From Candidatus Poseidoniaceae archaeon (GTDB lineage Archaea; Thermoplasmatota; Poseidoniia; Poseidoniales; Poseidoniaceae), in contig CBFIJH010000004.1 of NCBI GenBank assembly GCA_965662895.1, positions 1 through 64,000 on the forward strand: DNA of 64,000 nucleotides, read 5' to 3'. A program made the translations under genes and the position numbers. Shown here piece after piece: positions 3,861 through 58,039 of the stretch. The stretch's first letter is position 1, and the number at the start of each line of letters is the position of its first letter. The notes below the pieces were generated by a model, which ran no database searches, was not told the origin of the DNA, and saw nothing but the letters and a program-made list of their open reading frames with translations.

Positions 3861-4487
3861 TCAATTGAGAGCCGCAAGCAAATCTGATGCAATGAGGTCG
3901 ATGTCCCGGTCCCCGTCAATTGTTCTGAAGAGTCCTGCATCTTTGTAGTAGGAAGCGAGGGGTGCGGTCTGCTCATGGTATGCTTTCAATCGAGCGATGA
4001 CTGTTTCCTCAGTATCATCAGCACGACGTTTTTCGACGAATGACCCGCAGGTGCAACCCGTCTCTGGAAGCGGATTGAAACGATCGTGGTAGACCACTCC
4101 ACAAGTTCCACAACTAAACCTTCCGCAAATCCGTTCAACAATTCGTTCATCCGGAACATCAATGGCCAAAACAATCGAGACATCAACAAACTCTGCGAGT
4201 GCTTCGGCTTGAGGAACGGTTCGAGGGAAACCATCAAACATGACGCCATCTTTTGCATCGTCCTGTTTCATTCGATCACGAATAAGGTCGATAATGACCT
4301 GGTCAGGAACAAGAGCACCTGCGTCCATGTATTTCTTCGCTTCAAGGCCCACTTCGGTTTTGGCTTTCACGGCAGAACGTAGCATGTCGCCTGTAGAAAC
4401 TTGAGGCAAACCTGTGGCATCCATCATCCGTTGGGCTTGCGTACCTTTTCCGGCTCCAGGAGGTCCAAACAACACAATGTTGAGCAT
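3861..4487 (-). CDS. adk: Adenylate kinase (bacterial-type with Cys-rich LID)
   Basis: GPPGAGKGTQA P-loop, STGDMLR, DGFPRT and RRADD motifs, plus CGTC...CTC LID. Confidence 0.95.
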   Translation of the reverse strand: MLNIVLFGPPGAGKGTQAQRMMDATGLPQVSTGDMLRSAVKAKTEVGLEAKKYMDAGALVPDQVIIDLIRDRMKQDDAKDGVMFDGFPRTVPQAEALAEFVDVSIVLAIDVPDERIVERICGRFSCGTCGVVYHDRFNPLPETGCTCGSFVEKRRADDTEETVIARLKAYHEQTAPLASYYKDAGLFRTIDGDRDIDLIASDLLAALN

Positions 4488-4520
4488 GGACCAACGTCCT
4501 GTATCATGCATTTGAACGTA

Positions 4521-7500
4521 TCACTTCAACCCCATGCGTTGCAAGTACTGTTCACCATAGTGGTTCCATTGCTCCATGGTCCAACCGGATGGCAAACCAC
4601 CGGGTGGTAGAGGAGGTCCACTTGGCAACGGAGGGATTTCTTTCAACGGGGCGGGAGGCTGTCCAAGTGGAGGCAAACCAGCTGGTGGCAGACCTTTTGG
4701 CGGCACGCCCGCTGGCGGCAAGCCTGCTGGTGGCAAACCGACTGGCGCAGGTGCTGTTGGCAGTTGAAGATCCATCGATTGAGCGAGAGCTGCAGCAATT
4801 TCATCCTGAGAAACTTCTCCTGAGGCGAGGTCATTGACCGAGTGACTGATGTCCAGAACCTCGTCTCTCCTTGTTCCGAGATGGTCGGGGTTTGTGTGGA
4901 TATTCGGCAAGACGATATCGGTTTCTGAGTCTGGGAGAGCTGCGGATGATTTCAAACGACGAGCTCCAACAATCACCAGAATCGCTACAGCAGCAAGAAG
5001 TGGATAAGCGATGTAAGGAGACATGTTCAACAATCCACCTGAAGATTGCTGAGCACTGACGCTTGTATCCGCAGAGAATGTCATGACAACCCCGGAATCG
5101 GATGTGAAGGTCAGCATCAACTTGAAACGACCGTCCGCTGCATCAGCATCAGGCTGAACTTCAACAACAAGCTCTTTTGATTCTCCGACGGCAAGATCAC
5201 TCACGGTTGAAGGAGAAACGGAAGCAGAGCGATCGGATAATACAGCGCCATCCGAATCCTGAACGCTAACCTGAAGCGTCCCACTTAACGGCGTATTGCC
5301 TTCATTCACAATCACGAAGGTTTGCTTCGCTGACCCGTCACGGGGTATAAACAACAGAGGTGCTGATGATGTATCCGTTGAAAAAGCGGCAAAGTCGCTC
5401 TGCGGAACTTCAATCCGTATCGTTAACTCTGTTGTTACGAATCGGCCGTTGCTGGTCCCGTTAACATAAACTGGTAAGTCGAATCCAAAAGACGCATCCG
5501 TTTGATTTGGTGGACGAACTGCAAGAATGACGTTTGCTTGCGAAAACACATCAATGCTCAACGGAGGATTCGCAAAATTCACGGTCCAACCATCCGGCAT
5601 AATTCCAACATTCCATTCGAGATCAAGTTCAGCATTTCCAGTGTTTGATACGGTGAAATCGACAAATGTAAAATTCTCACCAATTGGCGTGGATACAACC
5701 CCTTCATCAACTTGCATCAATTCGACATCCAGGTTGTCAGAAACAACGAGAGAAGTCGTGTTTGACGTGAAGTACTGTGCATTGTGCTCGACTCGAAGGG
5801 TGTAGGTGTTTGAGTTACCTTCTCGAGCAGTTTCGGGAATAAGGAGCATGATTTGTACATCTGCGGATTGACCTGCAGGAAGCGTTAGGGCAATGTTCGA
5901 AGAACTTGATTGATCGGAATACGTCATTTGGGCAGCCCATGCCGGATTACCACGCTCAAGAGCAACCGTGAAATCCATCTCAGTATTTCCCTCGTTTGAA
6001 ATGGTGTGGTTGTAGTAGACCACTTCCCCTGTGTTGGCAGATACTGGAGCTGCAAGCGCACCCGGACCGATGGCTCCATTTGGCCCGTACAAATCGGACC
6101 GGAACGATCGTAATTCTGCGACAGCAATGTCCACAACCTCAACATGGTTCAACAATGGGTCTGTCGGTGAGGTCACGACACATGTCACCTCATCGATGAA
6201 ACCTGCAGTGGGTTGCCCATCCGCAACACGCGGAACAAAGACGTTGACATCCATCGATAAATCTTGAAGGATGTTGAGAGGTTCAAATTCCCGTGATGAG
6301 GAGTTTGAGTTACCGAGCATAATTTGCCATTGGGAAGCGGAGGAGCAGCTCATTGTGTATTGCGCAGCAGAATTCCCTGTGTTTCGTACGCCGATGGAGA
6401 AACCTGTACTCTCGCCCGGTTGAGCTGAAACGCCGAGGGTTCCAGAAGGTACCACGTCGACGGAATCGACTTGATCGATTGTAAAAGTCAGACGTTGTGT
6501 GTGCGAAACTGTCGGTTGATTTTGATACCGTGCGGTCACGTCGACAACGAAGGTTCCAGCGCGAGCATATCGCTTTGTTGAACCATCAAGCGATGCAGAC
6601 TGATCTTCCAAATCGAGCGTTAGATGAACTGTATCGTTCTCAGTGCCTTGACCGCTTAGCGTGAATGGACCAGAGGAATTCACTGTTTTTGACCATTGAT
6701 CTTCAGGACTGTTCAGGATGGCGGGGTAGATCAAATCCGGTTCCTGAACACTAGAAACCGTCAGGCTTACTGGCCGCTCTCCCGTACCTTCGTGGACGAC
6801 CACAAAGGGCAACGACAACCCAGTTTCATTTCGAACATCCATCACGACATTGGCAGCAAGTTCACGATCTTGCGTTGACTGTGGAATCATTCCATCATCG
6901 TCAAGGAAAATAACGCGCAACCCTTGAGCAGTAACTTCGACATCAAGTTCGAGGACATTGTTGTTCGTACCGGAGACACCGTCGTTTAGTTCAACAACTT
7001 GGTTGTTCGTGTCCAAGGAAAGTCGAAGTGTATGGGTTCCAGTTGAACTAAATTGTGCGAAGAACGAAATCGAGTCAAGTTCACCTCCATCCAGAGATGA
7101 GCGATCTGACTCGAAGAGGGTTGTACCTTCTGTTACATCCTCAAGTTGTATTTTGTATGGGCCTGAAGCAAGTGTTCCTTGGTTGTGCCACGCCAGGGAA
7201 ACGGAAACAAGGTCGCCAACAAGTGGTGTGAAAGAGGACGGCAGGATACTGTTGGCAAAGGTCGTTAAATCGGCCTTCGGAATCAATGTAGCGTCAGCTG
7301 CAAGGACGAGACTGAATCGTTGAGCCCCACCTCCTCTCTGTTCGACCTTGACCATCCATTCGCCCGATTGGCTGCTGGTTCCCGACAGCAGGCGTATACG
7401 CTCGATGTTGTTCAAGTCGTCTGCTTGACCGCCTGATACGGATTGCCCGTTTGCAAAGTTGTTTCCACGATATGTTGTTCCATCGGGAGCCAACAAGACC

Positions 7501-9350
7501 AAGTCGAGGTCGTTCAGCAATCTTGATTCGGTTTGAGGTGCATTTGCGCTTCCTTCCTCATCGCTCCATGCGAGTGTCAAATCGATACCTTTTGAAGCAT
7601 CCAAATCAAACGAATAGAGCAGTGAAAAACCAGGTTGCAACTCTCTTGAATCGTCATGGAACACATCCAGTGTCGTCCCACTATGGGTGGGGTTGAGGCT
7701 GTTTTCGAGGTCGATTTGACCCCATCCTTCGTTCATATTCGGAATGTTTGGCGTGCCCAAATCTTCTGCTCCATTCACCAAAGTTGCCTTGATTAGGCTG
7801 GCTGAAGGTTTGTTGATTCCTGCAACTTCTCGAAGGTATTCTCGGGCCAATGCAGCGGAGCCACCAGCAACGGCGGTGGCTTGTGAAGTTCCACTAAGTT
7901 CCATGTACATCGACCTTGAATTGCTATGGGTTCCCGTAGCACAAACGGTTCCAACAACGCTGTTTGCTTCCTCGGCTCGAGCCGAACAGATTCCTTCACC
8001 CGGGGCGACCAAATCCGGTTTGATTCGCCCGTCCAAAGCCGGACCTTGTGAGGATGATGAACTGACGCTTCCATTGTTGCTTGAACCAATGGCTAACACG
8101 TTCTTTGCCGTTGCTGGAGCCGTGATCTGGGAAGCACCGTTTGCTCCGTTGTCACCGACTGAGAAGATTGGTAGAAGATACTGATTGTTGAAGACATATT
8201 TGTCCGCAGAACGCGAATCTGCTGTGTAGTGGCCGTAGTTACCATTCGAACCCCAAGCGTTGACGGCTATTCGGGCCGTCTTGAGTTCAGCGTCAGAGAA
8301 AATGTCGTAAATTGAACCTTGGCGACCGAAATAACCTGTTGGATCGTGCTCGAGCGCATACATCACTAGGTTCGCATCGGGAGCAATGCCTGTTGTTGAT
8401 GCGTCACCACTCCCATCCCCAAGGACAGTCATAGCAACGTGTGTGCCATGACCGCTGTTGCTGTCCATTGGTGAAGAATCAAGCCCAAATTGGGTGTTGA
8501 TTGTTGCCACTCTTCCAAGTAGATCAGGGTGGTTGTCATCAATTCCAGTATCGGTGACAGCAATGGTCTCACCTGAACCGTTGAGTCCGAGGGATGAAGA
8601 CGGTCGGATGGCGACGGCTCCTACGACTGTAGCAGCGTCATTGTTGTGGAGAGAGAGTTCGTGGGTTGGTTGAACAAAAAGAACGTGCTCATTCGAAGCA
8701 ATGGGATGAAGTTGTTCGGATGTGAGACCCGATTCATACCAAGCCTCGCACATGTCCATGGAACACCACGCGGAGACAGCACCTTCCCGCAGGATTGTCG
8801 TCGTTAAATCCGAAATCGTTGATGCATCCACATCACTGGATAGGCTAAATTGGAGACCGTGAGAGCCAACAACATCGTTACCGATTCGCATAAATGGTTC
8901 ATATGAACCAACCCATCGGACCTCGTCCAGCGCTCGTATCGATTGAGTTTGTGAAAGGTCGTTCGTTCGAATCAGATACACGCCAGGGCTGTGGCGCTCG
9001 AGCACTTGAATATCAAAGGAATCAACCAATTTGTCCATGATTCGACCATCGTCCGTATACAACTGAATCATCTGAAGCGATGTTGAACCCTTTAACTGCC
9101 AACCAGAATGGACGGATTCCATATCCGTGACGATGGGATCGAACGATAGACGAGCGAGGTGAATAACAGAATCGACAGCATCCAGCGAAATGGCATGTTT
9201 TGAAACAGGTTCTGTTGACTGCCATGTCGTCTCAACATCGTCAGGCACAATGTTCGATTCAGTGGACAAGGGTGCTGATGAAACCAGCGGCAAAGCCAGT
9301 GAAAAGAGGAAAGTCAACAACAGGAAAAAACACCTGCGGCCTTGTTGCAT
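4521..9350 (-). CDS. Membrane-anchored S8 (KP-43-like) serine protease with CARDB/Ig-like repeats and Pro/Trp-rich cytoplasmic tail
   Basis: Signal peptide; triad DTG / HGTHVA / GTSQA; GRIKPDLVAPG and PSASLIKATLVNGA; NxGN Ig-like repeats; C-terminal TM helix followed by a Pro-rich tail. Confidence 0.9.
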   Translation of the reverse strand: MQQGRRCFFLLLTFLFSLALPLVSSAPLSTESNIVPDDVETTWQSTEPVSKHAISLDAVDSVIHLARLSFDPIVTDMESVHSGWQLKGSTSLQMIQLYTDDGRIMDKLVDSFDIQVLERHSPGVYLIRTNDLSQTQSIRALDEVRWVGSYEPFMRIGNDVVGSHGLQFSLSSDVDASTISDLTTTILREGAVSAWCSMDMCEAWYESGLTSEQLHPIASNEHVLFVQPTHELSLHNNDAATVVGAVAIRPSSSLGLNGSGETIAVTDTGIDDNHPDLLGRVATINTQFGLDSSPMDSNSGHGTHVAMTVLGDGSGDASTTGIAPDANLVMYALEHDPTGYFGRQGSIYDIFSDAELKTARIAVNAWGSNGNYGHYTADSRSADKYVFNNQYLLPIFSVGDNGANGASQITAPATAKNVLAIGSSNNGSVSSSSSQGPALDGRIKPDLVAPGEGICSARAEEANSVVGTVCATGTHSNSRSMYMELSGTSQATAVAGGSAALAREYLREVAGINKPSASLIKATLVNGAEDLGTPNIPNMNEGWGQIDLENSLNPTHSGTTLDVFHDDSRELQPGFSLLYSFDLDASKGIDLTLAWSDEEGSANAPQTESRLLNDLDLVLLAPDGTTYRGNNFANGQSVSGGQADDLNNIERIRLLSGTSSQSGEWMVKVEQRGGGAQRFSLVLAADATLIPKADLTTFANSILPSSFTPLVGDLVSVSLAWHNQGTLASGPYKIQLEDVTEGTTLFESDRSSLDGGELDSISFFAQFSSTGTHTLRLSLDTNNQVVELNDGVSGTNNNVLELDVEVTAQGLRVIFLDDDGMIPQSTQDRELAANVVMDVRNETGLSLPFVVVHEGTGERPVSLTVSSVQEPDLIYPAILNSPEDQWSKTVNSSGPFTLSGQGTENDTVHLTLDLEDQSASLDGSTKRYARAGTFVVDVTARYQNQPTVSHTQRLTFTIDQVDSVDVVPSGTLGVSAQPGESTGFSIGVRNTGNSAAQYTMSCSSASQWQIMLGNSNSSSREFEPLNILQDLSMDVNVFVPRVADGQPTAGFIDEVTCVVTSPTDPLLNHVEVVDIAVAELRSFRSDLYGPNGAIGPGALAAPVSANTGEVVYYNHTISNEGNTEMDFTVALERGNPAWAAQMTYSDQSSSSNIALTLPAGQSADVQIMLLIPETAREGNSNTYTLRVEHNAQYFTSNTTSLVVSDNLDVELMQVDEGVVSTPIGENFTFVDFTVSNTGNAELDLEWNVGIMPDGWTVNFANPPLSIDVFSQANVILAVRPPNQTDASFGFDLPVYVNGTSNGRFVTTELTIRIEVPQSDFAAFSTDTSSAPLLFIPRDGSAKQTFVIVNEGNTPLSGTLQVSVQDSDGAVLSDRSASVSPSTVSDLAVGESKELVVEVQPDADAADGRFKLMLTFTSDSGVVMTFSADTSVSAQQSSGGLLNMSPYIAYPLLAAVAILVIVGARRLKSSAALPDSETDIVLPNIHTNPDHLGTRRDEVLDISHSVNDLASGEVSQDEIAAALAQSMDLQLPTAPAPVGLPPAGLPPAGVPPKGLPPAGLPPLGQPPAPLKEIPPLPSGPPLPPGGLPSGWTMEQWNHYGEQYLQRMGLK
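4655..4745 (-). repeat. Degenerate 15-nt coding tandem repeat (GLPPA)n
   Basis: Encodes PVGLPPAGLPPAGVPPKGLPPAGLPPLGQPP in the protease tail. Confidence 0.7.
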
Positions 9351-20764: not shown

Positions 20765-22810
20765 TTAGGCTACAATCTTGATGATTCGATCGCAACCACT
20801 GCATTGTATCCGAATCGGTCGCAGATCGGAGGTAACTGGATTGGATGTTTGGCATTGTGGACAGGCGATTGTAGGGAAATTTTCGACAATGATTTGTGGT
20901 TTTGACGCAGCTCCTTTTGCATTTTTTGTTTTCGGTGATATCACTGCTGTAGCCCACCAAATGAACACAATTCCACCACTTGAACCCAAGATGTAGATTG
21001 GTTCAAAGGCAAAGAAGTGCAACAAGAACACGATAGGAACGAGGATCATTTCAATCATTATCGGATACTTTGAGCGATTGGCAACCATGCGGAAGGCGAA
21101 CAAGAGCCCTCCTGCAAGAATCAACGTGATGGCGATTGTCAGACCAATCGGAGCATGGAGAATCGATGTCGTTGGTTGTGAATCGATGGAGTATTCATCC
21201 GATTGTGTCAAACCTGAAGCAGAGAGCGTAGCAGACTCTCCCCATGGGAACCTCAAGTAGTTCAGTTCGATGGAATCGGTTTGTAAGACATCAATCGTCG
21301 AGAAGGACGTCATCGCACTCGATTTAATGTTGATGAACAAGTCATAGGTTGACCATAGAGGAGATGGTTGGTTTTTCATGAATGCACTATCAAGAATACG
21401 ATAACTCGATCCTGTCACAATCGGTGTTAAGGAATCGATTCGAAGTTTCAGAGGTGCATTACGAACCCTATCCTCACCCATCAAATCGAGCGTAATTGCA
21501 AACGACTGTGCATCGGAAAGATCGCCAATGAGCTCTTCGGATTCAAGACCGAGGCCGAACTGAAAGTATGTGATGTAATATGAGTCCATGTAATTCTCAA
21601 ATTGACTGATTTCAGCGCTTTCGATGACACGGCTTCCACGTTGTTCATCGTTCACATTCCCACCATCAAAGTTCTTCAACACATTGGAAAGTGGGATTGT
21701 TTCATCACCGAGGTGATCGAGTCCCCATCGCATCCAAAAAGCCATTTCACCCTCAATGGTCAGAATTGTAGTTTGCCCGAGCAGCAATCCTCCACCCTCC
21801 GATTCAAGTTCCATTGAAACGGAGATGTCCAAAGGCGAACCCTTTCCGTTGGTTCGCAGTGGCTCATTCAGAGGGTAGTATCCACCACCATCGCCTGTTG
21901 AATCAAAGGTTTCGATATCAAAATCCGCTGCACCATCAAGCGTCAGACCGTCTTGAAGCTCGTAGGAGACTGAAACATTGACTGTCTCTTCACCACCGGA
22001 AGCGCCATCCCACGTCCAAATGACAAGTATCGCATCCCCATCAAGCACTTCTGTTGGGTCTTGAGTCTGCGAAACTCCATTGACTTGGAGCGAAATGGAT
22101 TTCGAAAACACCAGTGCCTCCATTCCAAACGGAGATTCGATTCGAACGCCAAAGTACACAAGATCACCTTCGACGACTGGTTCATCAAGCGTCAAATCAA
22201 CGATTGGTAAATCAGCAGTTAGAGCGGATGGATGATCTTCACTGCCCCAAAAGAACTCCACCTTCGGACCACCAGAGGGGACACTGAAAACAACCGTTCT
22301 TGCACTAACACTAACGGAAATCTCGGAAGTCCCACTCACTTGAACCTCTTCAACGGGAACGTCGATTGTAATCGTTCCTGGTCCTTGTGCAACAAATTGT
22401 TGGTCAACTCCTAAGAAAGCAGTGAACGATGAGCCTCCAATGGTTACTGTCGCTGACATGTTCAGGTTTGCACCACCCGCATCGGAGACCTCGTAGGCCA
22501 ATTCAATCGACCATGTCGATTCTGGAACGGTTCCCGGCCATGCAGAATCTAGATTCCACTTACCGACTTGTTCAGACGAAGTAATCGACGTCTCAAACGA
22601 GACCGATGAGGAGGTTTCTGAGAATGCATCTGTAAATGGTGACAATTGCTGGTCACCATCACCAATCAAAAACAAATCAACTTCGGTAGCATCACAACAC
22701 ACCTTCGCATCCTCTGCTTGAGCAGTTGATACTATTGGAGAAAACGGAGCAAACATCGAGAGCATGAAGCAACCCAGCAATAGGAATGCTCGTCTCCGCA
22801 TCTTCACCAC
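20765..22810 (-). CDS. Secreted-domain multi-TM membrane protein with C-terminal zinc ribbon
   Basis: Signal peptide, large acidic extracellular region, about 3 C-terminal TM helices and CPQC...CSGC at the end. Confidence 0.75.
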   Translation of the reverse strand: MVKMRRRAFLLLGCFMLSMFAPFSPIVSTAQAEDAKVCCDATEVDLFLIGDGDQQLSPFTDAFSETSSSVSFETSITSSEQVGKWNLDSAWPGTVPESTWSIELAYEVSDAGGANLNMSATVTIGGSSFTAFLGVDQQFVAQGPGTITIDVPVEEVQVSGTSEISVSVSARTVVFSVPSGGPKVEFFWGSEDHPSALTADLPIVDLTLDEPVVEGDLVYFGVRIESPFGMEALVFSKSISLQVNGVSQTQDPTEVLDGDAILVIWTWDGASGGEETVNVSVSYELQDGLTLDGAADFDIETFDSTGDGGGYYPLNEPLRTNGKGSPLDISVSMELESEGGGLLLGQTTILTIEGEMAFWMRWGLDHLGDETIPLSNVLKNFDGGNVNDEQRGSRVIESAEISQFENYMDSYYITYFQFGLGLESEELIGDLSDAQSFAITLDLMGEDRVRNAPLKLRIDSLTPIVTGSSYRILDSAFMKNQPSPLWSTYDLFINIKSSAMTSFSTIDVLQTDSIELNYLRFPWGESATLSASGLTQSDEYSIDSQPTTSILHAPIGLTIAITLILAGGLLFAFRMVANRSKYPIMIEMILVPIVFLLHFFAFEPIYILGSSGGIVFIWWATAVISPKTKNAKGAASKPQIIVENFPTIACPQCQTSNPVTSDLRPIRIQCSGCDRIIKIVA

Positions 22811-33612: not shown

Positions 33613-33918
33613 ATGGCTACAACAGGTCAATCCCAATTGAAACCAATTCGTCTCCTCTCTGAAATTTGGAGAGAGATTTTTCTCGGCGTTGGCATGTGGG
33701 GGGCCTTCCGACCAATCTTTGCAGCCCTTTTGGCTGCAATTCCTGGCTTATTTCTCGGTCAACATTTCAACCGGAAACATCGACGTGCATTCGATTGGAC
33801 GTTGCTCCAACTTCCATTAGCACTCACGATTGTCTTGTACATCCCTCTCTGGTTGTGGTCAATTTACGATGCGTGGAGAGATGCAACAATCATTGTTTCA
33901 GAGGCTCGAAAGAACTAG
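33613..33918 (+). CDS. Small membrane protein
   Basis: Hydrophobic helices with IPGLFLGQHFN and WLWSIYDAW. Confidence 0.7.
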   Translation: MATTGQSQLKPIRLLSEIWREIFLGVGMWGAFRPIFAALLAAIPGLFLGQHFNRKHRRAFDWTLLQLPLALTIVLYIPLWLWSIYDAWRDATIIVSEARKN

Positions 33919-34703
33919 GGTCGCCACAATTGGTCAGACGTTTCAAGCTCACCACTCTTCATTCCTTCCATATCATCGAGGTCGTCTTGATCAAATTCTG
34001 TTGGTAAATCGCCACTGAGCCACGCATCGACCGTTAAGGATTCTATGGCCCAGTACATGACAGAGTCTTCATTGTTTGAGTGGCCTGGATGCTCGGAATC
34101 CTCGTGATCTGCGGGAGACGTGTAAACGAGATTCACAAGACCAAGAAGGTGTCCAAATTCGTGGACCATGACGCTGTTTTCGATATCTTCTGCAGAAATT
34201 CGAGGATTAAAGATGGAAGTTGCATCGTTGATTGAATCTGAAAACAAGGCAATGGTTGAAGCGTCAACTGCGACGCCTAAGACACTCTCATCGGAATACT
34301 TTCCTTCTGGCATGATGACATGCCATCGAAGAACAGATGTTTGTGGAGGAGCATCCATGGTTTCGTGGCCAACATCTCGAACTTTACTTGCTGTCCATGA
34401 TGAGGACTCGGAAAATTCAACTTCGGTCAATTCGATTTGGATGCCATTGGGTTTGTCACATACCTGGTCAAGTCGTTGTTTCAACAAACTTACCGTTGAC
34501 GATTCAGGACTGTACCCAGGAGCATGATCAATTTCAACGACCAATTCTTTGTATTCATCACTACGTAAGCAAGCAAGAGCGAGTCCTCCTGGTACGCCCC
34601 AAGACTCACCAAGTATGGTCTCAATGTCGGATGTGCATCCCGCCATAGGAATTGAAAGCATAAGGCAGGAGAGTAACACACCCATCAATCGTCGCCTTCG
34701 CAT
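33915..34703 (-). CDS. Lipoprotein zinc metalloprotease (metzincin-like)
   Basis: MRRRR + hydrophobic stretch + MAGC lipobox-like signal, HEFGHLLGL and an SVMYW Met-turn. GGAGG SD upstream. Confidence 0.82.
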   Translation of the reverse strand: MRRRRLMGVLLSCLMLSIPMAGCTSDIETILGESWGVPGGLALACLRSDEYKELVVEIDHAPGYSPESSTVSLLKQRLDQVCDKPNGIQIELTEVEFSESSSWTASKVRDVGHETMDAPPQTSVLRWHVIMPEGKYSDESVLGVAVDASTIALFSDSINDATSIFNPRISAEDIENSVMVHEFGHLLGLVNLVYTSPADHEDSEHPGHSNNEDSVMYWAIESLTVDAWLSGDLPTEFDQDDLDDMEGMKSGELETSDQLWRP

Positions 34704-34742
34704 GTATCCTCCACACCCTAACGCTTCTAAAATCTCACCAAT

Positions 34743-35183
34743 TTACCACTCTTCTGGTAGTTCGAGCGGGGAGAACAGTTGCCCAGGACCAGTCGCCTCA
34801 GAAAGTTGCTGTCGGACCAATTGCTCCCATGCGCGCAAAGCTAAGATTCCTTCAATGAGGTCCATTTCTGTTTCAACAAGCGTAACTCGAATAAGCGTCG
34901 AGAGAATATCCATGCGATCCTGGTCGACAATCTTCAGCACCTTTTCAACATCAAACACGCCAGCGCTTTGGCTATCACCACTCGGTGATTTGATTTCCCA
35001 CGGATGAGCAACCCGGTCACTAATTTCAGCACCTGTTTTGGAAGCATACTCAGTAAGCGAACCGAGGAGGCCCTGGATATGATGCTGCAATACAAGAGCG
35101 ACTTCAGAGACTGGCATAGTCAATTGACCAATGAGATTCACCATCCGCTCCTGCAACAATACCATTGAATCCGTTGCTGACAA
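34743..35183 (-). CDS. Hypothetical cytoplasmic helical protein
   Basis: TTG start with an AGGAG SD, 14 nt after the upstream stop. No signal peptide or TM helix. Confidence 0.7.
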   Translation of the reverse strand: MSATDSMVLLQERMVNLIGQLTMPVSEVALVLQHHIQGLLGSLTEYASKTGAEISDRVAHPWEIKSPSGDSQSAGVFDVEKVLKIVDQDRMDILSTLIRVTLVETEMDLIEGILALRAWEQLVRQQLSEATGPGQLFSPLELPEEW

Positions 35184-35197
35184 GTTGTCAACTCCTT

Positions 35198-38100
35198 CTA
35201 TTTCTTTGAAAATCCTTCAATGTATTTCCAGCCAAAATGGTTCCACTGTTCTTGTGTCCAGCCCTCAGGTAATCCCGTTGGAGGGAGAGGAGCAATACCC
35301 CGAGGGTCTGGTTGTGCGGGCGGTGCTGTTGCCGCTGGTTGAGGAGACGGAGCCTGCACCGGCGCAGGTACAGGGAGAGGTTGGTTGAGATTCAACTCTG
35401 GAACGGTTTTGGCTTCCATTTCCTCTGTGACAACATCGGTTTGGTCTGCTTCAAATTCATCGTCTCCATATTTCATCTTCCGATACATGACCAACATCCA
35501 CAAGAATGCAGAGAGCGATACAACTGCAACAAGGTACATGAAGATGGCAAACTGATCGTCACTCGCTTGCTGTGCAAGGGCATCTCCATCCCGGACCGTC
35601 TCCTTTTTGACAATGAGCGGGTCGACGTTGTATCGGTCCATTTCAACTCCGTCGATTAGTACCAGAAGCCGATACGTTTGTGATTGGCCAGGTTCGACAG
35701 ACGCCACCACAGGCATCGATGCGAAAGCAGCCATTCCAGCGGATACTGGGATGGTGGTATTGGATTCTTCATTCCAGTTGCCACCATCAACCAAACGTTG
35801 TAGGACAAAACGAACATCGCCTTTTCCACCTAGATTTGCAACGTTTATCTCAAGTTCAGACGTTTCACCGAGCGTTGGACTCGGATTGCTCCAACCAATG
35901 TCTGTGTCTTCGTTAGCAAAGGAAATACTCGGTCCAAGGAGTGCCAATGGCCATGTGGCAAAAGGCTGGTCGATGTTGTTGTTTTGCGTCTCAAACGGAT
36001 TACCGGTAGAATCCGAACCAGAGACCCAGATGTCGACCACATAGGATGGGAGAAGTGTGGTTGCACCCATGTCCGTCAAATCAATTGCACCCGTCCAGAA
36101 GAACTGTTCCCCGAACGGAAGAGTTTCCGGTAAGGCCGTCGCACCTCGCGAAATTTCAGCCTCACCAGCACGGATTCGATAGTGCAGAACGGCTGGGTTG
36201 TTCAAATCAAACCCATTGTCATCAACCGTTTCAAGCATAACCTGCAACGAATTCGCATCACCGATTGAGAGCGGTAACCCGACAGGGACTTCATTGAGCA
36301 TGACCGTTTTGATGGTTGGATTGGAACTATCGACGGTAAATCGCACCCTTGGGAGCGGACTTGTCTCATCTTGCGCAAGTCCAGGAAGGTCATCGAGTCG
36401 AAGACGCAGGTCAAGTTTGCCGGAATTCACCGACGGAACCAAAAGGTCGAGACTGAATTCTCCATTGTCTCTCGGTGAAGTTCTCCAGACGTGATCAAAG
36501 TCTCCAAACACGACATCAAACGCACCAGCAGGTGCTGGAGTTTCATCTTCACTAAACAGGACACGACCAGTGACTCGGAGTGCTTGGCCGCTACCGATTA
36601 AGGATTCATCTCCTTCATCATTGTAGTGATTTGTACCATCTCGCAATTCGACTGCCTTGATGTGACCGGGTTCGGTGTAGAACCTGAAATCGTTATCCAA
36701 ACTCCAAGCGTTCGAACCAAGGCCGCTGATCTTTGAGAAACAAGGCACTTCCTCGCCTTCGTTGCACGGCTTATCGGTCACCTTCAAAATCGGTATGAAA
36801 TGTTCAACCCCATTTGTATCGTATATCTCTGGGAACGACCATGTGAGTTGGAAGCGGGCCCGAATCAACAACTGGTTCGCGTCTTCTCCAAACGTCGAAA
36901 CTTGAGAGTACAGGTTCGATACTGCAATGTATTCGCCACCGGAATTGAGTTTTGCTTTCGGCATACCATTCTCATCTTCTTCGAGCTCGATGAAAATGGA
37001 TGTTTCATCATCGTTGACATCCTCTCCAAGTGCGAATTGTACAAATTCAATATCTTGCCAGCCGTTCCGATCGGAAAGAACCACTTGCGCAGTATACATG
37101 ACGCCAGGATGCAGCGGTTGTTGATCCTCATGGCCAATGATGCTCGAATTTGTTAAATCAACAACAGGTTCGAATTCTTGGCGTATTCTGTATGTCGAGG
37201 CATCAGCATCCCAGTTCGGCATAACTTGGCCTGGTGCGTATCCACAGACCTGTGGCGTAGGCGGACATACGGGACCACCTCCCATTGCAACCTGATTGTC
37301 TTGTCCGTCTTTTCCTGAAACGTATATCGAAACGACCTGACCATGCAAAAGCATTGAGTCATCGATAAGCCCATTGAATATGTTTAATCCTCCTGGTATA
37401 GTCTCTGGGGAGGACAATGTCTTCTCTGCATACTCATCTTCTTGGGGTAACCCATCGAAATTGAAGTCATGACATCCAATGGCGACTGTCGATTTGCATC
37501 CTACCCAATAATGGAGAGTGATTTGCGTCGGTGGATCAACGCTGTCTTGAATGTTGATTGCCACTGCTTGCCCACCCGGTGAAGGCGGTCCAACGTGGCG
37601 TTCTTGCCCATCAAATGGCGTGACACCAAGAACAAGAGGGGAGTTTCCGTCGAGAACAAGCCGCATCGTGTTGTAACCAGGATTGGTAAACGTCGAACCG
37701 TTTGGTAGATTGACCGCTTCGACATAAAATACCATCCCTCCAGGACTTGATTCGATTGGCGAAGTGAAGGATAGATTGTAGGCTCCGAAACTTGGATTGG
37801 ATTCTTCTGCAAGCAACACAGGTTGGCCAATCGGGTCGCCATCATATGTGACATTCTGACCGAGAACACGCAAGTCAAATTCGCCTGAAAGTGGAGACAA
37901 CTGCGAGGATTCAAAGTGGATTTTTCCGAGGAATGAAAGGTTTTGTCCCCCTCTTACCCAATCTTGTGGGTAGAGTTGACGTCCGGACTCATCAAAGACT
38001 TGCAATCCATCGAGCTGTATGTCATTTTCAACTCGAAGTTTCATGTTCTCCGTTTGCCAATTTGCTACCGCAGTGCCGAGAGAGTCCTTGACGGTGAGTA

Positions 38101-40585
38101 ACGCCTCAGTTGCTGCTTCATCATCCCAACTCCAATCGACCGTGACCGGAATCCGAATTGTTCGGACATTGCTAGCATCAATGGAGGATGAACAGTTTGC
38201 GGTATCAAAGACGACGATTCCATTTGCATCACTAAGGGTGCTGCAGGAATCTCCCTGTGTCCACTTGAAGGTCGGGTTCTCTCCATCAGAATTGTTCAGA
38301 GATGCTGTTACCTCTGTGACGAAATTTACCTCATCGCCGTGGGCGACTTTGATGATGAAATTCCGTGCAATTCCGTCTGGTGCAGCCATACCGCCCTCAA
38401 AAGTAGCACCAATTGCATGGGTATTCATTTTGTATGAAATATCGAGATCATTGATTTTTACACGGCCCGATGTCTGAGCCTTGATAGCAAGTGGAACCTC
38501 AACCATACCCTCGCCATTGTCTGGAATGAATTCGTTGAAAGCGTCGACCAAGGTTGGTTGGAACTCCACTTCTTCACCAACGACAGAATCATCGTTGACA
38601 TCAATGCTAGATTCGTTAAGGAAAAGGATACTTTCCCAATCGAAATTGCCATCGCCTCCTACGTCGATTCTCGGCCGGTCAGGGTAGCCTTCTTCATAGA
38701 ACAACTCCAAACTGTCCAACATCGGTGTTTTGTACCGATCGGTTGAAGTCATTGTGACTGCGTAACGTAGGAGGTTTCCGGCCCCGTCCGTTGAGAAACT
38801 TGTCTCGACAAGGTTCTCAGCAGGTTGCCACGTCGTTCCGTCATCATTTGAAACTTGAACGGAAATGTCCGTTGCTGGATCCATGGTCGCCATCCAAACG
38901 GGACGCACTTTACCGACTTTGGTTCCAGTTGGTTGGGCAGGTGAAACCCAAGTTCCACTCGTCTCATATTCGGTTGCATATTCAATGTCAACCCACCAAG
39001 AAACTGCAGTTGAACCGATTAACGTTGCTTTCCAAACCAACTCCTTGCCGGGATGCTGGAAATGAACGGTTGTGTTGGATTCAACTGCAACCCAGTGCGT
39101 ACCGTTGTCTGCAGATACCCAATAATCGACTCGATCACCGATTGAAGCAGCAGACCAAAGTGTTTCGATGTTCGCAACAAGTACATCTTCGGTTGTTTCA
39201 ATGACTGGACCAAACCACGTTGTCGTGCCAGGGGCTGGCGTTGTTTTGTATTGCCAACCCGTACCGAATTCATGATACGATGGTGAACTTGACCATGTCG
39301 AGTAACCTGAATCGACGGTGATGAATCGCTGGCCGTCAAAGAACAGACCGTAACCAAGCGATGAGATGCTGCGAACCGTGTTTTCTGGAATCAAAGCCGT
39401 TGCACTACCAGATCGACCCCAAGATTCGAGTTGGTCTCGGTCGTTGTAATAGTTACCGTCTTGGCAACGCATGAAGAAATGGGTTTGGTTCATTTCAAGC
39501 CCCCGTGCTTGTTGGTTGCTTACACCACATTGCCAAATTGAGGAAGTTGAGGTTTGGAACGTAAAGTAGGCATCGCCTCGTTCAAGATCGCCGGTTGAAC
39601 TAACGGTATAGGACTGTATCCGTCGATTTTGGTTGTGCAATACCCAAATCGTATCGTCGACAGGATCGTAGGTAATCCCGGTATAATCACCGTTTCCTTG
39701 AGGTTCGAAAGAGTTCGTACAAATCCATTCATTTTCATTGGAAATATCAAATTCCAGAATTCGATGGTACACGGCATTTGCCGATGAAGTGTAGAAGTAT
39801 TTGTAACCAGAGAGAATGGCATAAAGGCGTTCGTCATCGGTTACAACCCAGTCACGGAACCCCCACTGCCCGTAGTAGGACGAGGAATGTTTTGTTGGCA
39901 GCGTGCAACCGTTTTGGTCGAGTGTGATGATGCTTTCCCGAGTTGCATTGTTTGGATACAAACGATGGACAATGTTGTGGAATGTGGTTGACGACCAGGT
40001 TGAGAGATACAACCAATCGTGGTGGCGTAGAATCGCTCCTTGGCCCTGCGCGTTGATGTTGTTTGGACTCAGTTTGAGTTGTTGTGAAAAGAGAGCGTCC
40101 GTCCGGTTGGAGGTATGTGGTTGACGAACGGCATATGTACCGTTGTCAAGCCATGCAGTACTTGATGGATTGACTTCTTCATCCAATCCGTGCGTGTTAA
40201 ACTCCTGGCTGGAGTTGGCCATTGCGAGGGTAAGATCTGCGCTTTGGTTGTCCGTGTCGGAAGCAACACCCCCGGCCCAGTGGTCGCGAGTTGTCGTGGG
40301 AATAGAAGACCAACCAGTCGCAGAAGCACCTGACAGAGTCATTTGAACATCCGTAACTTGGGCACCTTTTGGCAAAGCAATCTTGGCCCCACTGTCTGCG
40401 TTACCGCCCTGGTAAAGTGCGATGTATTCAGAGGTTCCATCACTGAACTCATAGGTGTGACGAGCGACTTCTGAAGCTTCTGCTTCTTCAATCCAAAGTT
40501 CACCAAGGGGAGAAAAGCTCATTCCTAGAAAAAGGGCAAGAAGCAGGAAAGCAAGGGAGCGTTGAGAGACAGCGTTCACACTCAT
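35198..40585 (-). CDS. Giant (1795 aa) membrane-anchored surface protein with Asp-box motifs and Trp-rich C-terminal tail
   Basis: Signal peptide, propeller-like N-region, VSADNGTHW and VSNDDGTTW Asp-boxes, Ig-like segments, C-terminal TM helix, Pro-rich linker and GLPEGWTQEQWNHFG. Confidence 0.8.
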   Translation of the reverse strand: MSVNAVSQRSLAFLLLALFLGMSFSPLGELWIEEAEASEVARHTYEFSDGTSEYIALYQGGNADSGAKIALPKGAQVTDVQMTLSGASATGWSSIPTTTRDHWAGGVASDTDNQSADLTLAMANSSQEFNTHGLDEEVNPSSTAWLDNGTYAVRQPHTSNRTDALFSQQLKLSPNNINAQGQGAILRHHDWLYLSTWSSTTFHNIVHRLYPNNATRESIITLDQNGCTLPTKHSSSYYGQWGFRDWVVTDDERLYAILSGYKYFYTSSANAVYHRILEFDISNENEWICTNSFEPQGNGDYTGITYDPVDDTIWVLHNQNRRIQSYTVSSTGDLERGDAYFTFQTSTSSIWQCGVSNQQARGLEMNQTHFFMRCQDGNYYNDRDQLESWGRSGSATALIPENTVRSISSLGYGLFFDGQRFITVDSGYSTWSSSPSYHEFGTGWQYKTTPAPGTTTWFGPVIETTEDVLVANIETLWSAASIGDRVDYWVSADNGTHWVAVESNTTVHFQHPGKELVWKATLIGSTAVSWWVDIEYATEYETSGTWVSPAQPTGTKVGKVRPVWMATMDPATDISVQVSNDDGTTWQPAENLVETSFSTDGAGNLLRYAVTMTSTDRYKTPMLDSLELFYEEGYPDRPRIDVGGDGNFDWESILFLNESSIDVNDDSVVGEEVEFQPTLVDAFNEFIPDNGEGMVEVPLAIKAQTSGRVKINDLDISYKMNTHAIGATFEGGMAAPDGIARNFIIKVAHGDEVNFVTEVTASLNNSDGENPTFKWTQGDSCSTLSDANGIVVFDTANCSSSIDASNVRTIRIPVTVDWSWDDEAATEALLTVKDSLGTAVANWQTENMKLRVENDIQLDGLQVFDESGRQLYPQDWVRGGQNLSFLGKIHFESSQLSPLSGEFDLRVLGQNVTYDGDPIGQPVLLAEESNPSFGAYNLSFTSPIESSPGGMVFYVEAVNLPNGSTFTNPGYNTMRLVLDGNSPLVLGVTPFDGQERHVGPPSPGGQAVAINIQDSVDPPTQITLHYWVGCKSTVAIGCHDFNFDGLPQEDEYAEKTLSSPETIPGGLNIFNGLIDDSMLLHGQVVSIYVSGKDGQDNQVAMGGGPVCPPTPQVCGYAPGQVMPNWDADASTYRIRQEFEPVVDLTNSSIIGHEDQQPLHPGVMYTAQVVLSDRNGWQDIEFVQFALGEDVNDDETSIFIELEEDENGMPKAKLNSGGEYIAVSNLYSQVSTFGEDANQLLIRARFQLTWSFPEIYDTNGVEHFIPILKVTDKPCNEGEEVPCFSKISGLGSNAWSLDNDFRFYTEPGHIKAVELRDGTNHYNDEGDESLIGSGQALRVTGRVLFSEDETPAPAGAFDVVFGDFDHVWRTSPRDNGEFSLDLLVPSVNSGKLDLRLRLDDLPGLAQDETSPLPRVRFTVDSSNPTIKTVMLNEVPVGLPLSIGDANSLQVMLETVDDNGFDLNNPAVLHYRIRAGEAEISRGATALPETLPFGEQFFWTGAIDLTDMGATTLLPSYVVDIWVSGSDSTGNPFETQNNNIDQPFATWPLALLGPSISFANEDTDIGWSNPSPTLGETSELEINVANLGGKGDVRFVLQRLVDGGNWNEESNTTIPVSAGMAAFASMPVVASVEPGQSQTYRLLVLIDGVEMDRYNVDPLIVKKETVRDGDALAQQASDDQFAIFMYLVAVVSLSAFLWMLVMYRKMKYGDDEFEADQTDVVTEEMEAKTVPELNLNQPLPVPAPVQAPSPQPAATAPPAQPDPRGIAPLPPTGLPEGWTQEQWNHFGWKYIEGFSKK

Positions 40586-40634
40586 GTTGTCAATGCAGTC
40601 CTTGAAGGATTATCAAGCGTTTGGATAATGGTCA

Positions 40635-57991: not shown

Positions 57992-58020
57992 CCCTCTTTT
58001 AGAACCTAAATCGTGAACGA

Positions 58021-58026
58021 ATATAA
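58021..58026 (-). promoter_or_regulatory. Putative archaeal TATA box (TTATAT) for the beta-helix/STAND operon
   Basis: TTATAT on the minus strand, about 30 nt upstream of ATG 57991. Confidence 0.5.
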
Positions 58027-58039
58027 TACTGCGCCCCAA

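What the first reader, a model, noticed from the sequence alone, without database searches (positions are those of the whole stretch)
4521..4616. Shared Trp-rich C-terminal motif on unrelated giant surface proteins: candidate sorting/docking tag (copy 1)
Seen in sequence: the S8 protease ends TM helix -> acidic/Pro-rich linker -> PPLPPGGLPSGWTMEQWNHYGEQYL. The unrelated 1795-aa protein 30 kb away ends TM helix -> acidic/Pro-rich linker -> APLPPTGLPEGWTQEQWNHFGWKYI. The consensus PLPPxGLPxGWTxEQWNH[YF]GxxY sits at the same distance from the stop in both, while the extracellular parts share no evident similarity. Established knowledge: PGF-CTERM and PEP-CTERM tags mark cargo for dedicated processing, but this motif lies on the cytoplasmic side after the TM helix and matches neither. 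Inference: it is a lineage-specific cytoplasmic tag that recruits a common partner to localise, cluster or process surface hydrolases and adhesins. I know of no assigned function, but cannot exclude an existing uncharacterised domain entry.
Basis: partly seen in the sequence, partly recalled or inferred. Interest (0 to 1): 0.78.

Follow-up and report, generated by a model that had tools for sequence, protein, structure and literature searches.

The report
Shared cytoplasmic tail cap, marine archaea
Nine otherwise unrelated cell-surface proteins of this abundant ocean archaeon end, on the inner side of the membrane, in the same tiny, almost invariant tryptophan-rich module that no database describes; it probably plugs them into a shared but still unidentified partner inside the cell.

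Summary
The motif PPLPxxGLPxGW[TS]xEQWxxYGxx[YW]L ('Cap A') closes the tails of 9 large type-I membrane proteins in this 1.86-Mb genome, not 2. It occurs in 151 of 151 sampled genomes of the order, and in 0 of 165 sampled genomes elsewhere in the phylum. It defines 640 protein clusters in a 1.84-billion-protein library. Pfam and NCBIfam have no model for it.

Within orthologous carriers the module keeps 75-77 % identity, while ectodomain, TM helix and linker fall to 24-43 %. The linker varies from 18 to 121 residues. AlphaFold2 predicts a Pro-rich arm plus one helix, with no solved look-alike.

The best reading is a tethered docking handle for a common intracellular partner. That partner is still not identified.

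New here:
- A WW-like second cap family cannot be the obligate partner.
- One carrier type is coupled to the cell's only SepF in 26 of 30 loci and adds an FtsZ-tail-like acidic tip.
- Another carrier type precedes LonB in 25 of 30 loci.
- An order-restricted 146-aa protein follows copy 2.

The scan has found this module before in other Poseidoniales genomes.

The parts
4542..4616 (-). Cap A module, copy 1 (residues P1579-L1603 of the 1609-aa S8 protease): Pro-rich arm PPLPPGGLPSG plus helix WTMEQWNHYGEQYL
   Evidence: E 1.3e-17; AF2: residues 21-50 of the 50-aa tail have block pLDDT 85-89, helix 33-47
4617..4961 (-). Cytoplasmic linker of copy 1 (115 residues). It is Pro-rich and acidic, with a run of GLPPAG-type repeats and a family-specific motif SGEVSQDEIAAALAQSM that is also present in the orthologue of the other family
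4962..5018 (-). Single C-terminal TM helix of the S8 carrier (residues 1445-1463), followed by RRLK
   Evidence: hydropathy window 2.12
4521..9350 (-). Carrier 1: signal peptide, Peptidase_S8, CARDB/NEW3-type Ig-like domains, TM helix, tail, Cap A
3861..4511 (-). Adenylate kinase, 9 nt downstream of carrier 1 and co-directional. The same pair is seen in a genome of the other family (G087)
35219..35293 (-). Cap A module, copy 2 (residues A1765-I1789 of the 1795-aa protein)
   Evidence: E 2.4e-16
35294..35488 (-). Cytoplasmic linker of copy 2 (65 residues, acidic then Pro/Ala/Gln-rich)
35489..35545 (-). Single C-terminal TM helix of carrier 2 (residues 1681-1699), followed by YRKMK
35198..40585 (-). 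Carrier 2: 1795-aa type-I surface protein with no Pfam family
34743..35183 (-). 146-aa soluble protein of no known family, 14 nt downstream of carrier 2. It is single-copy in 40 of 41 sampled genomes of the order and was not found in 126 genomes outside it. It ends in a conserved ...GPGQLFSPLEIPEDW tip. It is a weak phylogenetic-profile candidate for a partner

Best explanation
Cap A is a 25-27-residue mini-module that probably folds on its own. It consists of a Pro-rich arm (PPLPxxGLPxG) followed by one N-capped aromatic helix (W[TS]xEQWxxYGxx[YW]L). It sits at or near the end of a flexible cytoplasmic tether of free length on type-I surface proteins of Poseidoniales.

Its most likely role is a tethered docking handle. 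Proteins with unrelated ectodomains (proteases, lectins, Ig-like-domain proteins) present the same small surface to one conserved partner at the inner face of the membrane. Through that partner they would be positioned, clustered, coupled to cell-cycle machinery, or turned over.

Shown here: the module, its position, its order-wide universality, its restriction to the order, and its far stronger conservation than the rest of the protein.
Inferred: the cytoplasmic location (positive-inside rule), the fold (AlphaFold2 only) and the docking function.
The partner is not identified.
For: 1. Reuse on unrelated carriers. There are 9 carriers in this genome with different ectodomains. There are 640 clusters in the 1.84-billion-protein library.
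2. Position. The module is C-terminal in 124 of the 150 listed representatives. Of the 40 testable representatives, 39 have an upstream TM helix.
3. Strong selection on the module alone. Mean pairwise identity is 0.77 and 0.75 for the module. It is 0.36 and 0.43 for the ectodomain, 0.38 for the TM helix, and 0.35 and 0.24 for the linker, in 25 LonB-linked and 24 SepF-linked orthologues. Orthologue pairs across families keep only 33 % and 29 % identity in the ectodomain.
4. The linker length is free (18-121 residues). This fits a tethered ligand and does not fit a function that needs fixed geometry.
5. In SepF-linked carriers Cap A is internal. It is followed by a further 20-115-residue linker and a second terminal motif. 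This is a beads-on-a-string layout of independent handles. It also shows that Cap A does not need a free C-terminus.
6. Cap A is universal in the order (151 of 151) and was not found outside it (0 of 165). It is kept even in 1.3-Mb genomes that hold only 1-3 copies.
7. AF2 models residues 21-50 with confidence (block pLDDT 85-89), including the non-helical Pro arm.
8. The module is acidic (mean net charge -2.96) and its helix is only weakly amphipathic (muH 0.26 against 0.18 +- 0.09 in shuffles). That argues against simple membrane binding.
Against: - No partner was found by any route tried here.
- In a 25-residue domain nearly every residue may be needed for folding, so near-invariance alone does not prove a binding surface.
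- Several unrelated small modules occupy the same terminal position on other surface proteins of this genome: WW-like Cap B, GW-helix repeats and zinc ribbons. That could point to a generic 'end of tail' role rather than specific docking.
- The conserved downstream neighbours of carriers (LonB, thermosome, adenylate kinase, SepF) are housekeeping genes. Their linkage may be inherited gene order only.
- The cytoplasmic topology and the fold are predictions.
Confidence: 0.5

Rival explanations
1. Self-association. Cap A modules of different surface proteins bind each other (homo- or hetero-oligomers of the aromatic helix). This would cluster the surface proteome into patches without a separate partner.
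For: - Near-identical sequence across 9 paralogues and 151 genomes is what mutual compatibility would demand.
- An invariant Gly sits in the middle of the helix, flanked by aromatic residues (position 21 of the module, 149 of 149 representatives, not forced by the regex). That would allow close helix-helix packing.
- The copy number is plural in nearly all genomes.
Against: - Two sampled genomes of one genus (G009, G059) keep only one Cap A gene. Heterotypic clustering cannot be its essential role there, although homotypic pairing remains possible.
- No tandem modules were seen: each of the 150 listed representatives has 1 matched stretch.
- Self-association was not tested directly.
Confidence: 0.15
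2. Turnover signal or protective end cap. The module controls access of the membrane AAA+ protease LonB (or the proteasome) to the long disordered tail. It acts either as a recognition tag for extraction and degradation of surface proteins or as a folded stopper that prevents it.
For: - A Cap A carrier lies directly upstream of LonB and co-directional in 25 of 30 loci across all three families, with 3-68 nt between frames.
- In the two genomes with a single Cap A gene, that gene is the LonB-linked one.
- Several unrelated small folded modules occupy tail ends in this genome.
Against: - LonB here has no lineage-specific docking domain. Its N-terminal extension is only about 20 residues longer than in the solved Thermococcus LonB.
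- Cap A is internal in the SepF-linked carriers, so it is not an end cap there.
- The linkage may be inherited gene order. It is missing in 5 of 9 loci of family f3.
Confidence: 0.12
3. Membrane-interface anchor. The Trp/Tyr-rich helix lies back on the inner leaflet and only stabilises or orients the tail.
For: Trp and Tyr prefer membrane interfaces (established knowledge). The helix has an aromatic face.
Against: - The module is acidic (mean net charge -2.96). Only 36 of 149 representatives have any Lys or Arg in the first 25 residues.
- The hydrophobic moment lies within one s.d. of shuffles.
- Amphipathicity alone would not demand near-invariant sequence.
- A tether of 18-121 residues is unnecessary for folding back on the membrane.
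Confidence: 0.05
4. Nascent-chain regulatory peptide. The Pro- and Trp-rich C-terminal stretch stalls the ribosome near the stop codon and thereby tunes translation of the closely following gene (adenylate kinase, LonB, thermosome, SepF).
For: Carriers are followed at -13 to +68 nt by co-directional genes. The motif is rich in Pro and Trp, as known arrest peptides are (recalled).
Against: - Two of the 9 carriers in this genome are followed by convergent genes (C5, C15).
- The distance from the module to the stop codon ranges from 3 to more than 100 codons.
- AF2 predicts a folded unit.
- The distance from the TM helix is not fixed, so a force-sensing mechanism is unlikely.
Confidence: 0.04

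Closest known systems
Tripartite C-terminal sorting signals of prokaryotic surface proteins (PGF-CTERM/archaeosortase, PEP-CTERM/exosortase, LPXTG/sortase)
   Same: A short, lineage-typical C-terminal element shared by many otherwise unrelated surface proteins of one organism.
   Different: In those signals the signature motif lies before the TM helix on the outer side, the tail after the helix is a few basic residues, and the whole signal is cleaved off (established knowledge). Here the motif lies 32-123 residues after the TM helix on the inner side, on a long linker. No curated model matches.
WW domain (Pfam PF00397) and its Pro-rich ligands
   Same: The module starts with LPxGW, as WW domains do (recalled). 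It also contains PPLP, recalled as a class-II WW ligand motif.
   Different: The Pfam WW model matches 0 of 9 tails at E <= 10. The two Trp residues are 5 residues apart and the second half is predicted helical, not a three-stranded sheet. The WW-like Cap B family of the same genome was not found in 20 sampled genomes that keep Cap A, so a Cap B-PPLP pairing cannot be obligatory.
Trp-and-acidic docking motifs on cytoplasmic tails of eukaryotic adhesins, such as Plasmodium TRAP-family tails that bind aldolase (PMC3448169; only the abstract seen, in the listing)
   Same: A short Trp-containing acidic element at the end of the cytoplasmic tail of a type-I adhesin couples the surface protein to an intracellular machine. 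This is what Cap A most plausibly works like.
   Different: There is no sequence relation. Cap A is longer, is predicted to fold, and occurs in an archaeon. Its partner is unknown.
FtsZ C-terminal peptide bound by SepF (M. smithii complex; PMC8178401, passages read)
   Same: The carrier type coupled to SepF ends in ...LLDDLDL or ...LLDDFDL. The paper gives LDDFI as the FtsZ residues lying in the SepF groove, with Asp-Arg/Lys ion pairs.
   Different: This concerns the extra tip found on one carrier type, not Cap A itself. Binding was not shown.

Membership tests
Tripartite C-terminal sorting signal (PGF-CTERM, PEP-CTERM, LPXTG type) | The signature motif lies immediately N-terminal to the TM helix, on the extracytoplasmic side | tested here: not met
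   In all 9 carriers the motif starts 32-123 residues after the TM helix
Tripartite C-terminal sorting signal (PGF-CTERM, PEP-CTERM, LPXTG type) | The TM helix is followed only by a short basic cluster at the extreme C-terminus | tested here: not met
   The tails after the helix are 51-146 residues long
Tripartite C-terminal sorting signal (PGF-CTERM, PEP-CTERM, LPXTG type) | Match to a curated NCBIfam sorting-signal model | tested here: not met
   Nine TM+tail segments were scanned at E <= 10. Only low-complexity hits of at most 12.3 bits appeared, against cut-offs of 60-1800 bits, and none was a sorting signal
Tripartite C-terminal sorting signal (PGF-CTERM, PEP-CTERM, LPXTG type) | A dedicated sortase, archaeosortase or exosortase is encoded in the genome | tested here: inconclusive
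   PF09721 gives one sub-threshold hit (16.3 bits, cut-off 25.7). The control search did not ring in Haloferax either
WW domain (PF00397) | Match to the family profile | tested here: not met
   0 of 9 tails matched at E <= 10
WW domain (PF00397) | A three-stranded antiparallel sheet with two signature Trp about 20 residues apart (recalled definition) | tested here: not met
   The Trp residues are 5 apart. AF2 predicts a helix at residues 33-47 and no strand
PP-fold / Trp-cage-like mini-proteins (polyproline arm packed on an aromatic helix; a resemblance recalled from memory) | A Pro-rich PPII arm packs intramolecularly on the aromatic face of a short helix | tested here: inconclusive
   AF2 gives pLDDT of about 85 for the non-helical Pro arm and 89 for the helix, but coordinates and contacts were not available to me. 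Foldseek on the PDB gave 0 matches, and VIA-align against 48,161 chains gave 0 with Z >= 2
SepF (identity of the gene coupled to one carrier type) | An N-terminal amphipathic membrane helix, a flexible linker and a C-terminal alpha/beta core with the SepF fold | tested here: met
   The architecture is visible in an alignment of 28 homologues. The AF2 core has pLDDT 90-94. The top 12 Foldseek matches are all SepF, with 3zie at TM-score 0.78-0.80. The Pfam SepF model reaches only E 0.26, below its cut-off
SepF ligand of the FtsZ C-terminal-peptide type (the acidic tip of SepF-linked carriers) | The peptide binds the SepF groove between alpha2 and beta3 | not testable with these tools
   There is motif likeness only: LLDD[LF]D[LF] against the paper's LDDFI. 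Groove residues could not be mapped by sequence

The most novel reading that the evidence does not exclude
The cytoplasmic tails of Poseidoniales surface proteins carry a modular 'address code', and Cap A is its universal handle. Through Cap A and add-on motifs, the surface proteome is physically coupled to core intracellular machines. One example of an add-on is the FtsZ-tail-like acidic tip on the lectin-type carrier, whose gene overlaps the cell's only SepF gene. The coupled machines would be the SepF/FtsZ division ring, the membrane protease LonB, or the order-restricted 146-aa protein encoded after copy 2. This would be an archaeal counterpart of the adhesion-receptor-to-cytoskeleton coupling known from eukaryotes.
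Probability: 0.15. Interest if true: 0.85.

Novelty: new variant of a known kind. Interest (0 to 1): 0.6.

Why it matters
Poseidoniales (Marine Group II) are among the most abundant archaea of the surface ocean and are uncultured. [quoted passage not shown]

A single, nearly invariant handle on the inner end of these proteins, universal in the order, implies an unrecognised link between the cell surface and the cell interior in an archaeon. Such a link could serve positioning, clustering, division-coupled inheritance or turnover of the surface coat.

The module is small enough to synthesise, so it is a ready bait for finding that machinery without a culture. The SepF-coupled carrier with an FtsZ-tail-like tip gives a first concrete pair to test in vitro.

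Tried and rejected
1. **Cap B (WW-like tail cap, about 12 proteins here) as the receptor of Cap A's PPLP.** Rejected as an obligate partner. Cap B was found in 41 of 61 sampled genomes. It was not found at E <= 1e-4 in 20 genomes (genera g12-g15 and g17, 86-97 % complete) that all carry Cap A. Pfam WW matched 0 of 12 Cap B tails.
2. **MIT/ESCRT-III route (MIM2-like Pro motif).** PF04212 and PF03357 gave 0 hits in this 92 %-complete genome.
3. **A lineage-specific docking domain on LonB.** None was seen.
4. **A 'soluble' thioredoxin-fold carrier (P0130).** It is probably an assembly chimera. It sits on a single 955-nt contig, and its cluster mate P0153 and its viral relatives lack Cap A.
5. **Cap A on viral contigs.** There were 21 pattern matches, about what I estimate chance gives. 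The ones read are internal segments without the Pro arm.
6. **Complex prediction of SepF-like x2 with the SepF-linked tail (Cap A + tip).** The verdict was 'no answer': score 0.00 against a mark of 0.32, and the controls were not run. This is neither support nor evidence against. Cap A with itself, with LonB or with the 146-aa protein could not be tried, because only one job is allowed.
7. **Expression.** No RNA holder was listed.
8. **ESM Atlas on the tail.** The best score was 0.77, which is uninformative.
9. **Mapping the M. smithii SepF groove residues onto the Poseidoniales SepF.** The M. smithii chain was not reached by sequence. The top hit was A. fulgidus 3zie at E 0.13.
10. **Literature.** Four full-text searches found no paper on this module or on a SepF-surface-protein coupling in this lineage. 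In one search all 15 listed Marine Group II papers have 0 occurrences of 'SepF'. Supplements were not examined.
11. **Shared neighbours.** No single gene neighbours all nine carriers.
Full report
**1. The observation**

The window is contig C4, bases 1-64000, of a 1.86-Mb assembly in 26 contigs, estimated 92 % complete.

The two tails read exactly as reported.
- The 1609-aa protein (4521..9350, minus strand) has a Peptidase_S8 domain (E 1.7e-42).
- The 1795-aa protein (35198..40585, minus strand) has no Pfam family at E <= 0.01.

Each protein has a signal-like N-terminus, a single TM helix followed by basic residues, a tail of 146 or 96 residues, and the motif. In both, 6 residues follow the motif's final Y[LI].

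The two tails score 138 in a local alignment, against 35.2 +- 6.5 for 2000 shuffles (maximum 63). The two ectodomains score 54, against 54.6 +- 6.6 for 30 shuffles. So the shared element is real, and it is confined to the tails.

**2. How many carriers, and where**

A regex and then a profile built from the tails were run over all 36,489 six-frame ORFs of the genome. They find exactly nine carriers at E <= 7.3e-15. The next hit is at E 0.65.

All nine are proteins of 797-1795 residues with one C-terminal TM helix, basic residues after it, and a tail of 51-146 residues. My hydropathy threshold flags an N-terminal hydrophobic segment in 8 of the 9. The ninth (on C5) has a visibly signal-like start.

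Their ectodomains differ: S8 protease, CARDB, PKD, NHL/TSP3, propeller-like, or nothing recognisable.

In eight carriers the module is followed by 3-8 residues. In the ninth (L003, on C3) it is followed by 36 residues that end in ...LLDDLDL.

**3. Is it catalogued?**

- Pfam matches 0 of 9 tails at E <= 10.
- NCBIfam, which holds the curated sorting-signal models, gives only low-complexity hits of at most 12.3 bits, far below the cut-offs.
- Foldseek against the PDB and VIA-align against 48,161 chains find nothing for the AF2 model.
- The ESM Atlas gives nothing above 0.77.
- Four literature searches found no description.

The scan itself has met the module repeatedly in other Poseidoniales genomes. 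At least eight earlier notes concluded 'docking handle, partner unknown'. I treated these as leads.

**4. Distribution**

The profile finds 640 cluster representatives at E <= 0.001, and 368 at E <= 1e-10, among 1.84 billion proteins. The following counts are for the 150 listed.
- The GW core lies at most 25 residues from the end in 124, at 26-60 residues in 20, and further in 6.
- Of the 40 with at least 150 residues upstream, 39 have a TM helix before the module.
- Many of the short ones are gene fragments from contig ends.

Across whole genomes:
- Cap A is in 151 of 151 sampled genomes of the order (22 of 22 genera). Counts by family, without G000, are f1 74/74, f2 2/2 and f3 74/74.
- There are about 5-12 copies per genome in this genome's family and 1-8 (mostly 3) in f3.
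- In a sample of the phylum, the 35 hits besides G000 all belong to the order.
- Cap A was found in 0 of 165 sampled genomes outside the order, including 0 of 2 from the other lineage of the same class.

**5. Anatomy and selection**

Conservation was computed over 149 representatives.
- Invariant positions not forced by my regex: P4, G7, L8, P9 and G21.
- Nearly invariant: P1, P2, T/S13, E15, Y20 and L25.
- Positions 11, 12 and 17 are fixed by the regex, and 15 and 16 are restricted by it.
- Variable positions: 5, 6, 10, 18, 22, 23, 26 and 27.

The variable helix positions 18 and 22 lie on one face of the helix, which suggests a single exposed, non-functional stripe.

AF2 was run on a 59-row alignment. 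It gives block pLDDT of 85-89 for residues 21-50, a helix at residues 33-47, and a confident but non-helical Pro arm.

My own structural inference, not tested, is as follows. T13 with E15/Q16 looks like a helix N-cap. W12 and W17 (i, i+5) look like a hydrophobic staple.

Identity within orthologous carriers:

| Region | 25 LonB-linked carriers | 24 SepF-linked carriers |
|---|---|---|
| Module (25 residues) | 0.77 | 0.75 |
| Ectodomain | 0.36 | 0.43 |
| TM helix | 0.38 | 0.38 |
| Linker | 0.35 | 0.24 |

Linker lengths range from 18 to 121 residues. Cross-family orthologue pairs share only 33 % and 29 % identity in the ectodomain.

The module is acidic (mean net charge -2.96). Its helix is only weakly amphipathic.

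**6. Context within the genome: a repertoire of tail ends**

A crude census finds about 98 ORFs of at least 350 residues whose last TM helix lies in the C-terminal 40 %. Their tail ends fall into recurring classes.
- **Cap A:** 9 proteins.
- **Cap B:** a WW-like beta-type Trp cap on about 12 proteins, including a short variant on the window's 1458-aa protein.
- **Cap C:** GW-helix repeats.
- **Zinc ribbons.**
- **Acidic tips.**

A profile-profile comparison aligns Cap A's GLPxGWTxEQWxxYGxxYL with one Cap C unit (probability 69 %, E 4.4e-5 for that single comparison, 23 columns). This suggests that Cap A's helix is a specialised member of a wider GW-helix family. Neither Cap B nor Cap C has a Pfam family.

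**7. Search for the partner**

(a) **Cap B.** Cap A contains PPLP, which I recall as a WW ligand motif. However, Cap B was found in only 41 of 61 sampled genomes (f1 29/29, f2 2/2, f3 9/29). It was not found in five genera that all keep Cap A. So Cap B is not an obligate partner.

(b) **MIT/ESCRT-III.** Not found in this genome.

(c) **Conserved gene pairs.**
- A Cap A carrier lies directly upstream of LonB and co-directional in 25 of 30 loci. The counts by family are f1 19/19, f2 2/2 and f3 4/9. It is the only Cap A gene left in G009 and G059.
- LonB shows no lineage-specific domain.
- The S8 carrier is followed by adenylate kinase here and in G087.
- The L007-type carrier is followed by a thermosome subunit here and in G087.

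(d) **SepF.**
- The 185-aa gene that overlaps the end of carrier L003 by 4 nt is the genome's only SepF-like gene (Pfam E 0.26).
- It is single-copy in 41 of 41 sampled genomes.
- It has the SepF architecture and the SepF fold. Its top 12 Foldseek matches are all SepF, with 3zie at TM-score 0.78-0.80.
- In 26 of 30 loci a Cap A carrier lies immediately upstream with abutting or overlapping frames.
- In all 26 the tail runs on past Cap A and ends in LLDDLDL, LLDDFDL, DDLDLDF or DPWEFDL.
- The four loci without a carrier are L091, L093, L098 and L099.
- In this genome that tip is unique to L003 among membrane proteins.
- Pende et al. (PMC8178401, passages read) give LDDFI as the FtsZ residues in the archaeal SepF groove, held by Asp-Arg/Lys pairs.
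- I infer that the tip, not Cap A, is a SepF ligand. This is not shown.

(e) **The 146-aa protein after copy 2.**
- It is soluble by hydropathy and has no family in Pfam, NCBIfam, the PDB or the Atlas.
- It was found in 40 of 41 sampled genomes of the order. In a phylum sample it was found in 24 of 24 order genomes and 0 of 126 outside, using a single-sequence query at E <= 0.001.
- A Cap A carrier precedes it in 19 of 20 loci of family f1 and in 0 of 10 loci of family f3. In f3 the homologue of the window's 1913-aa secreted protein, or another surface protein, precedes it instead.
- Its phyletic pattern equals Cap A's. However, many proteins may share that pattern, so it is only a weak candidate.

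**8. Reading**

The data fit a tethered docking handle best (confidence 0.5).
- The module is reused on unrelated carriers.
- It is the most constrained part of them.
- It hangs on a linker of free length.
- It tolerates being internal when a second handle follows.
- It is universal in the order and restricted to it.

The rivals are self-association (0.15), a LonB-related turnover signal or end cap (0.12), membrane-interface binding (0.05) and a nascent-chain regulatory peptide (0.04). The remainder is left open.

It is not a member of the tripartite sorting-signal families or of the WW family, because defining features of both were tested and not met. What it most resembles functionally is the Trp-and-acidic docking motif on the cytoplasmic tails of eukaryotic adhesins.

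**9. What remains open**

- The partner.
- The fold, which rests on AF2 only; I could not inspect contacts.
- The topology.
- Expression.

Supplements of the cited papers were not examined.

Noticed in passing
G000 C3:97552-98109 (minus strand; L008:3553-4110) and C3:98106-101705 (L003): The cell's only SepF (fold confirmed) overlaps by 4 nt the end of a Cap A lectin-type carrier. That carrier's tail ends in an acidic tip, ...LLDDLDL, which resembles the FtsZ residues (LDDFI) that the M. smithii paper places in the SepF groove. The pair is conserved in 26 of 30 loci across the order.
   Followed up: yes
G000 C9:18343-20379 (LonB) and C9:20443-23964 (L005): A Cap A carrier sits directly upstream of the membrane protease LonB in 25 of 30 loci of the order. 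It is the only Cap A gene left in two streamlined genomes (G009, G059).
   Followed up: yes
window 34743..35183 (minus strand): A 146-aa soluble protein of no known family, found in 40 of 41 sampled genomes of the order and in 0 of 126 outside. It ends in a very conserved ...GPGQLFSPLEIPEDW. It is part of the string 1913-aa secreted giant, 1795-aa anchored giant, small protein, zincin-like lipoprotein (window 33915..46376).
   Followed up: partly
window 53666..53737 (minus strand), the end of the 1458-aa beta-helix protein 53663..58039; also 10 further proteins on other contigs (L027-L036): A second, unrelated tail-end family (Cap B): a WW-like Trp-rich beta module (G.xW...G..WWYR....D.W). Pfam WW matches 0 of 12. 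It is present in 41 of 61 sampled genomes and was not found in five small-genome genera.
   Followed up: partly
G000 C4:84700-84921, C3:28815-29036, C7 (L009:5856-6035), C14, C12, C10, C5 (L130-L135): A third tail-end family (Cap C): tandem GW-helix units such as ...GWTEEMLQQYLDHGWTLDQLEEYY. It is distantly similar to Cap A's helix (hhalign probability 69 %). The only Pfam signal is a sub-threshold Ish1/HeH-type hit (E 0.15, 1 of 7 members).
   Followed up: partly
window 20765..22810 (minus strand) and G000 C5:5060-7921, C3:87951-93059, C19:9127-11409, C9:24849-28835, C5:13378-17850: Several surface-type membrane proteins end inside the cell in CxxC...CxxC zinc-ribbon-like motifs instead of a Trp cap.
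   Followed up: no
window 4617..4961 and orthologues (L021); L005 and L014 tails; L007 tail: Each core carrier type has its own extra conserved linear motif in the linker: SGEVSQDEIAAALAQSM in the S8 type, ANSMYGG..IFQQ in others, and SATYGAVAAAP in the L007 type. These suggest further binding sites on the tails.
   Followed up: no
P0130 (142 aa, single 955-nt metagenome contig): A thioredoxin-fold protein that appears to carry Cap A without a TM helix. Its cluster mate and viral relatives lack the module, so it is probably an assembly chimera joined at a poly-Pro stretch.
   Followed up: yes
G000 C3:129541-129769: A 76-aa frame right after a 1618-aa type-I protein with a 16-residue tail holds two Cap B-like units (...GVWWWQ...GSWWYKD...). 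It may be a frameshifted or split tail.
   Followed up: no
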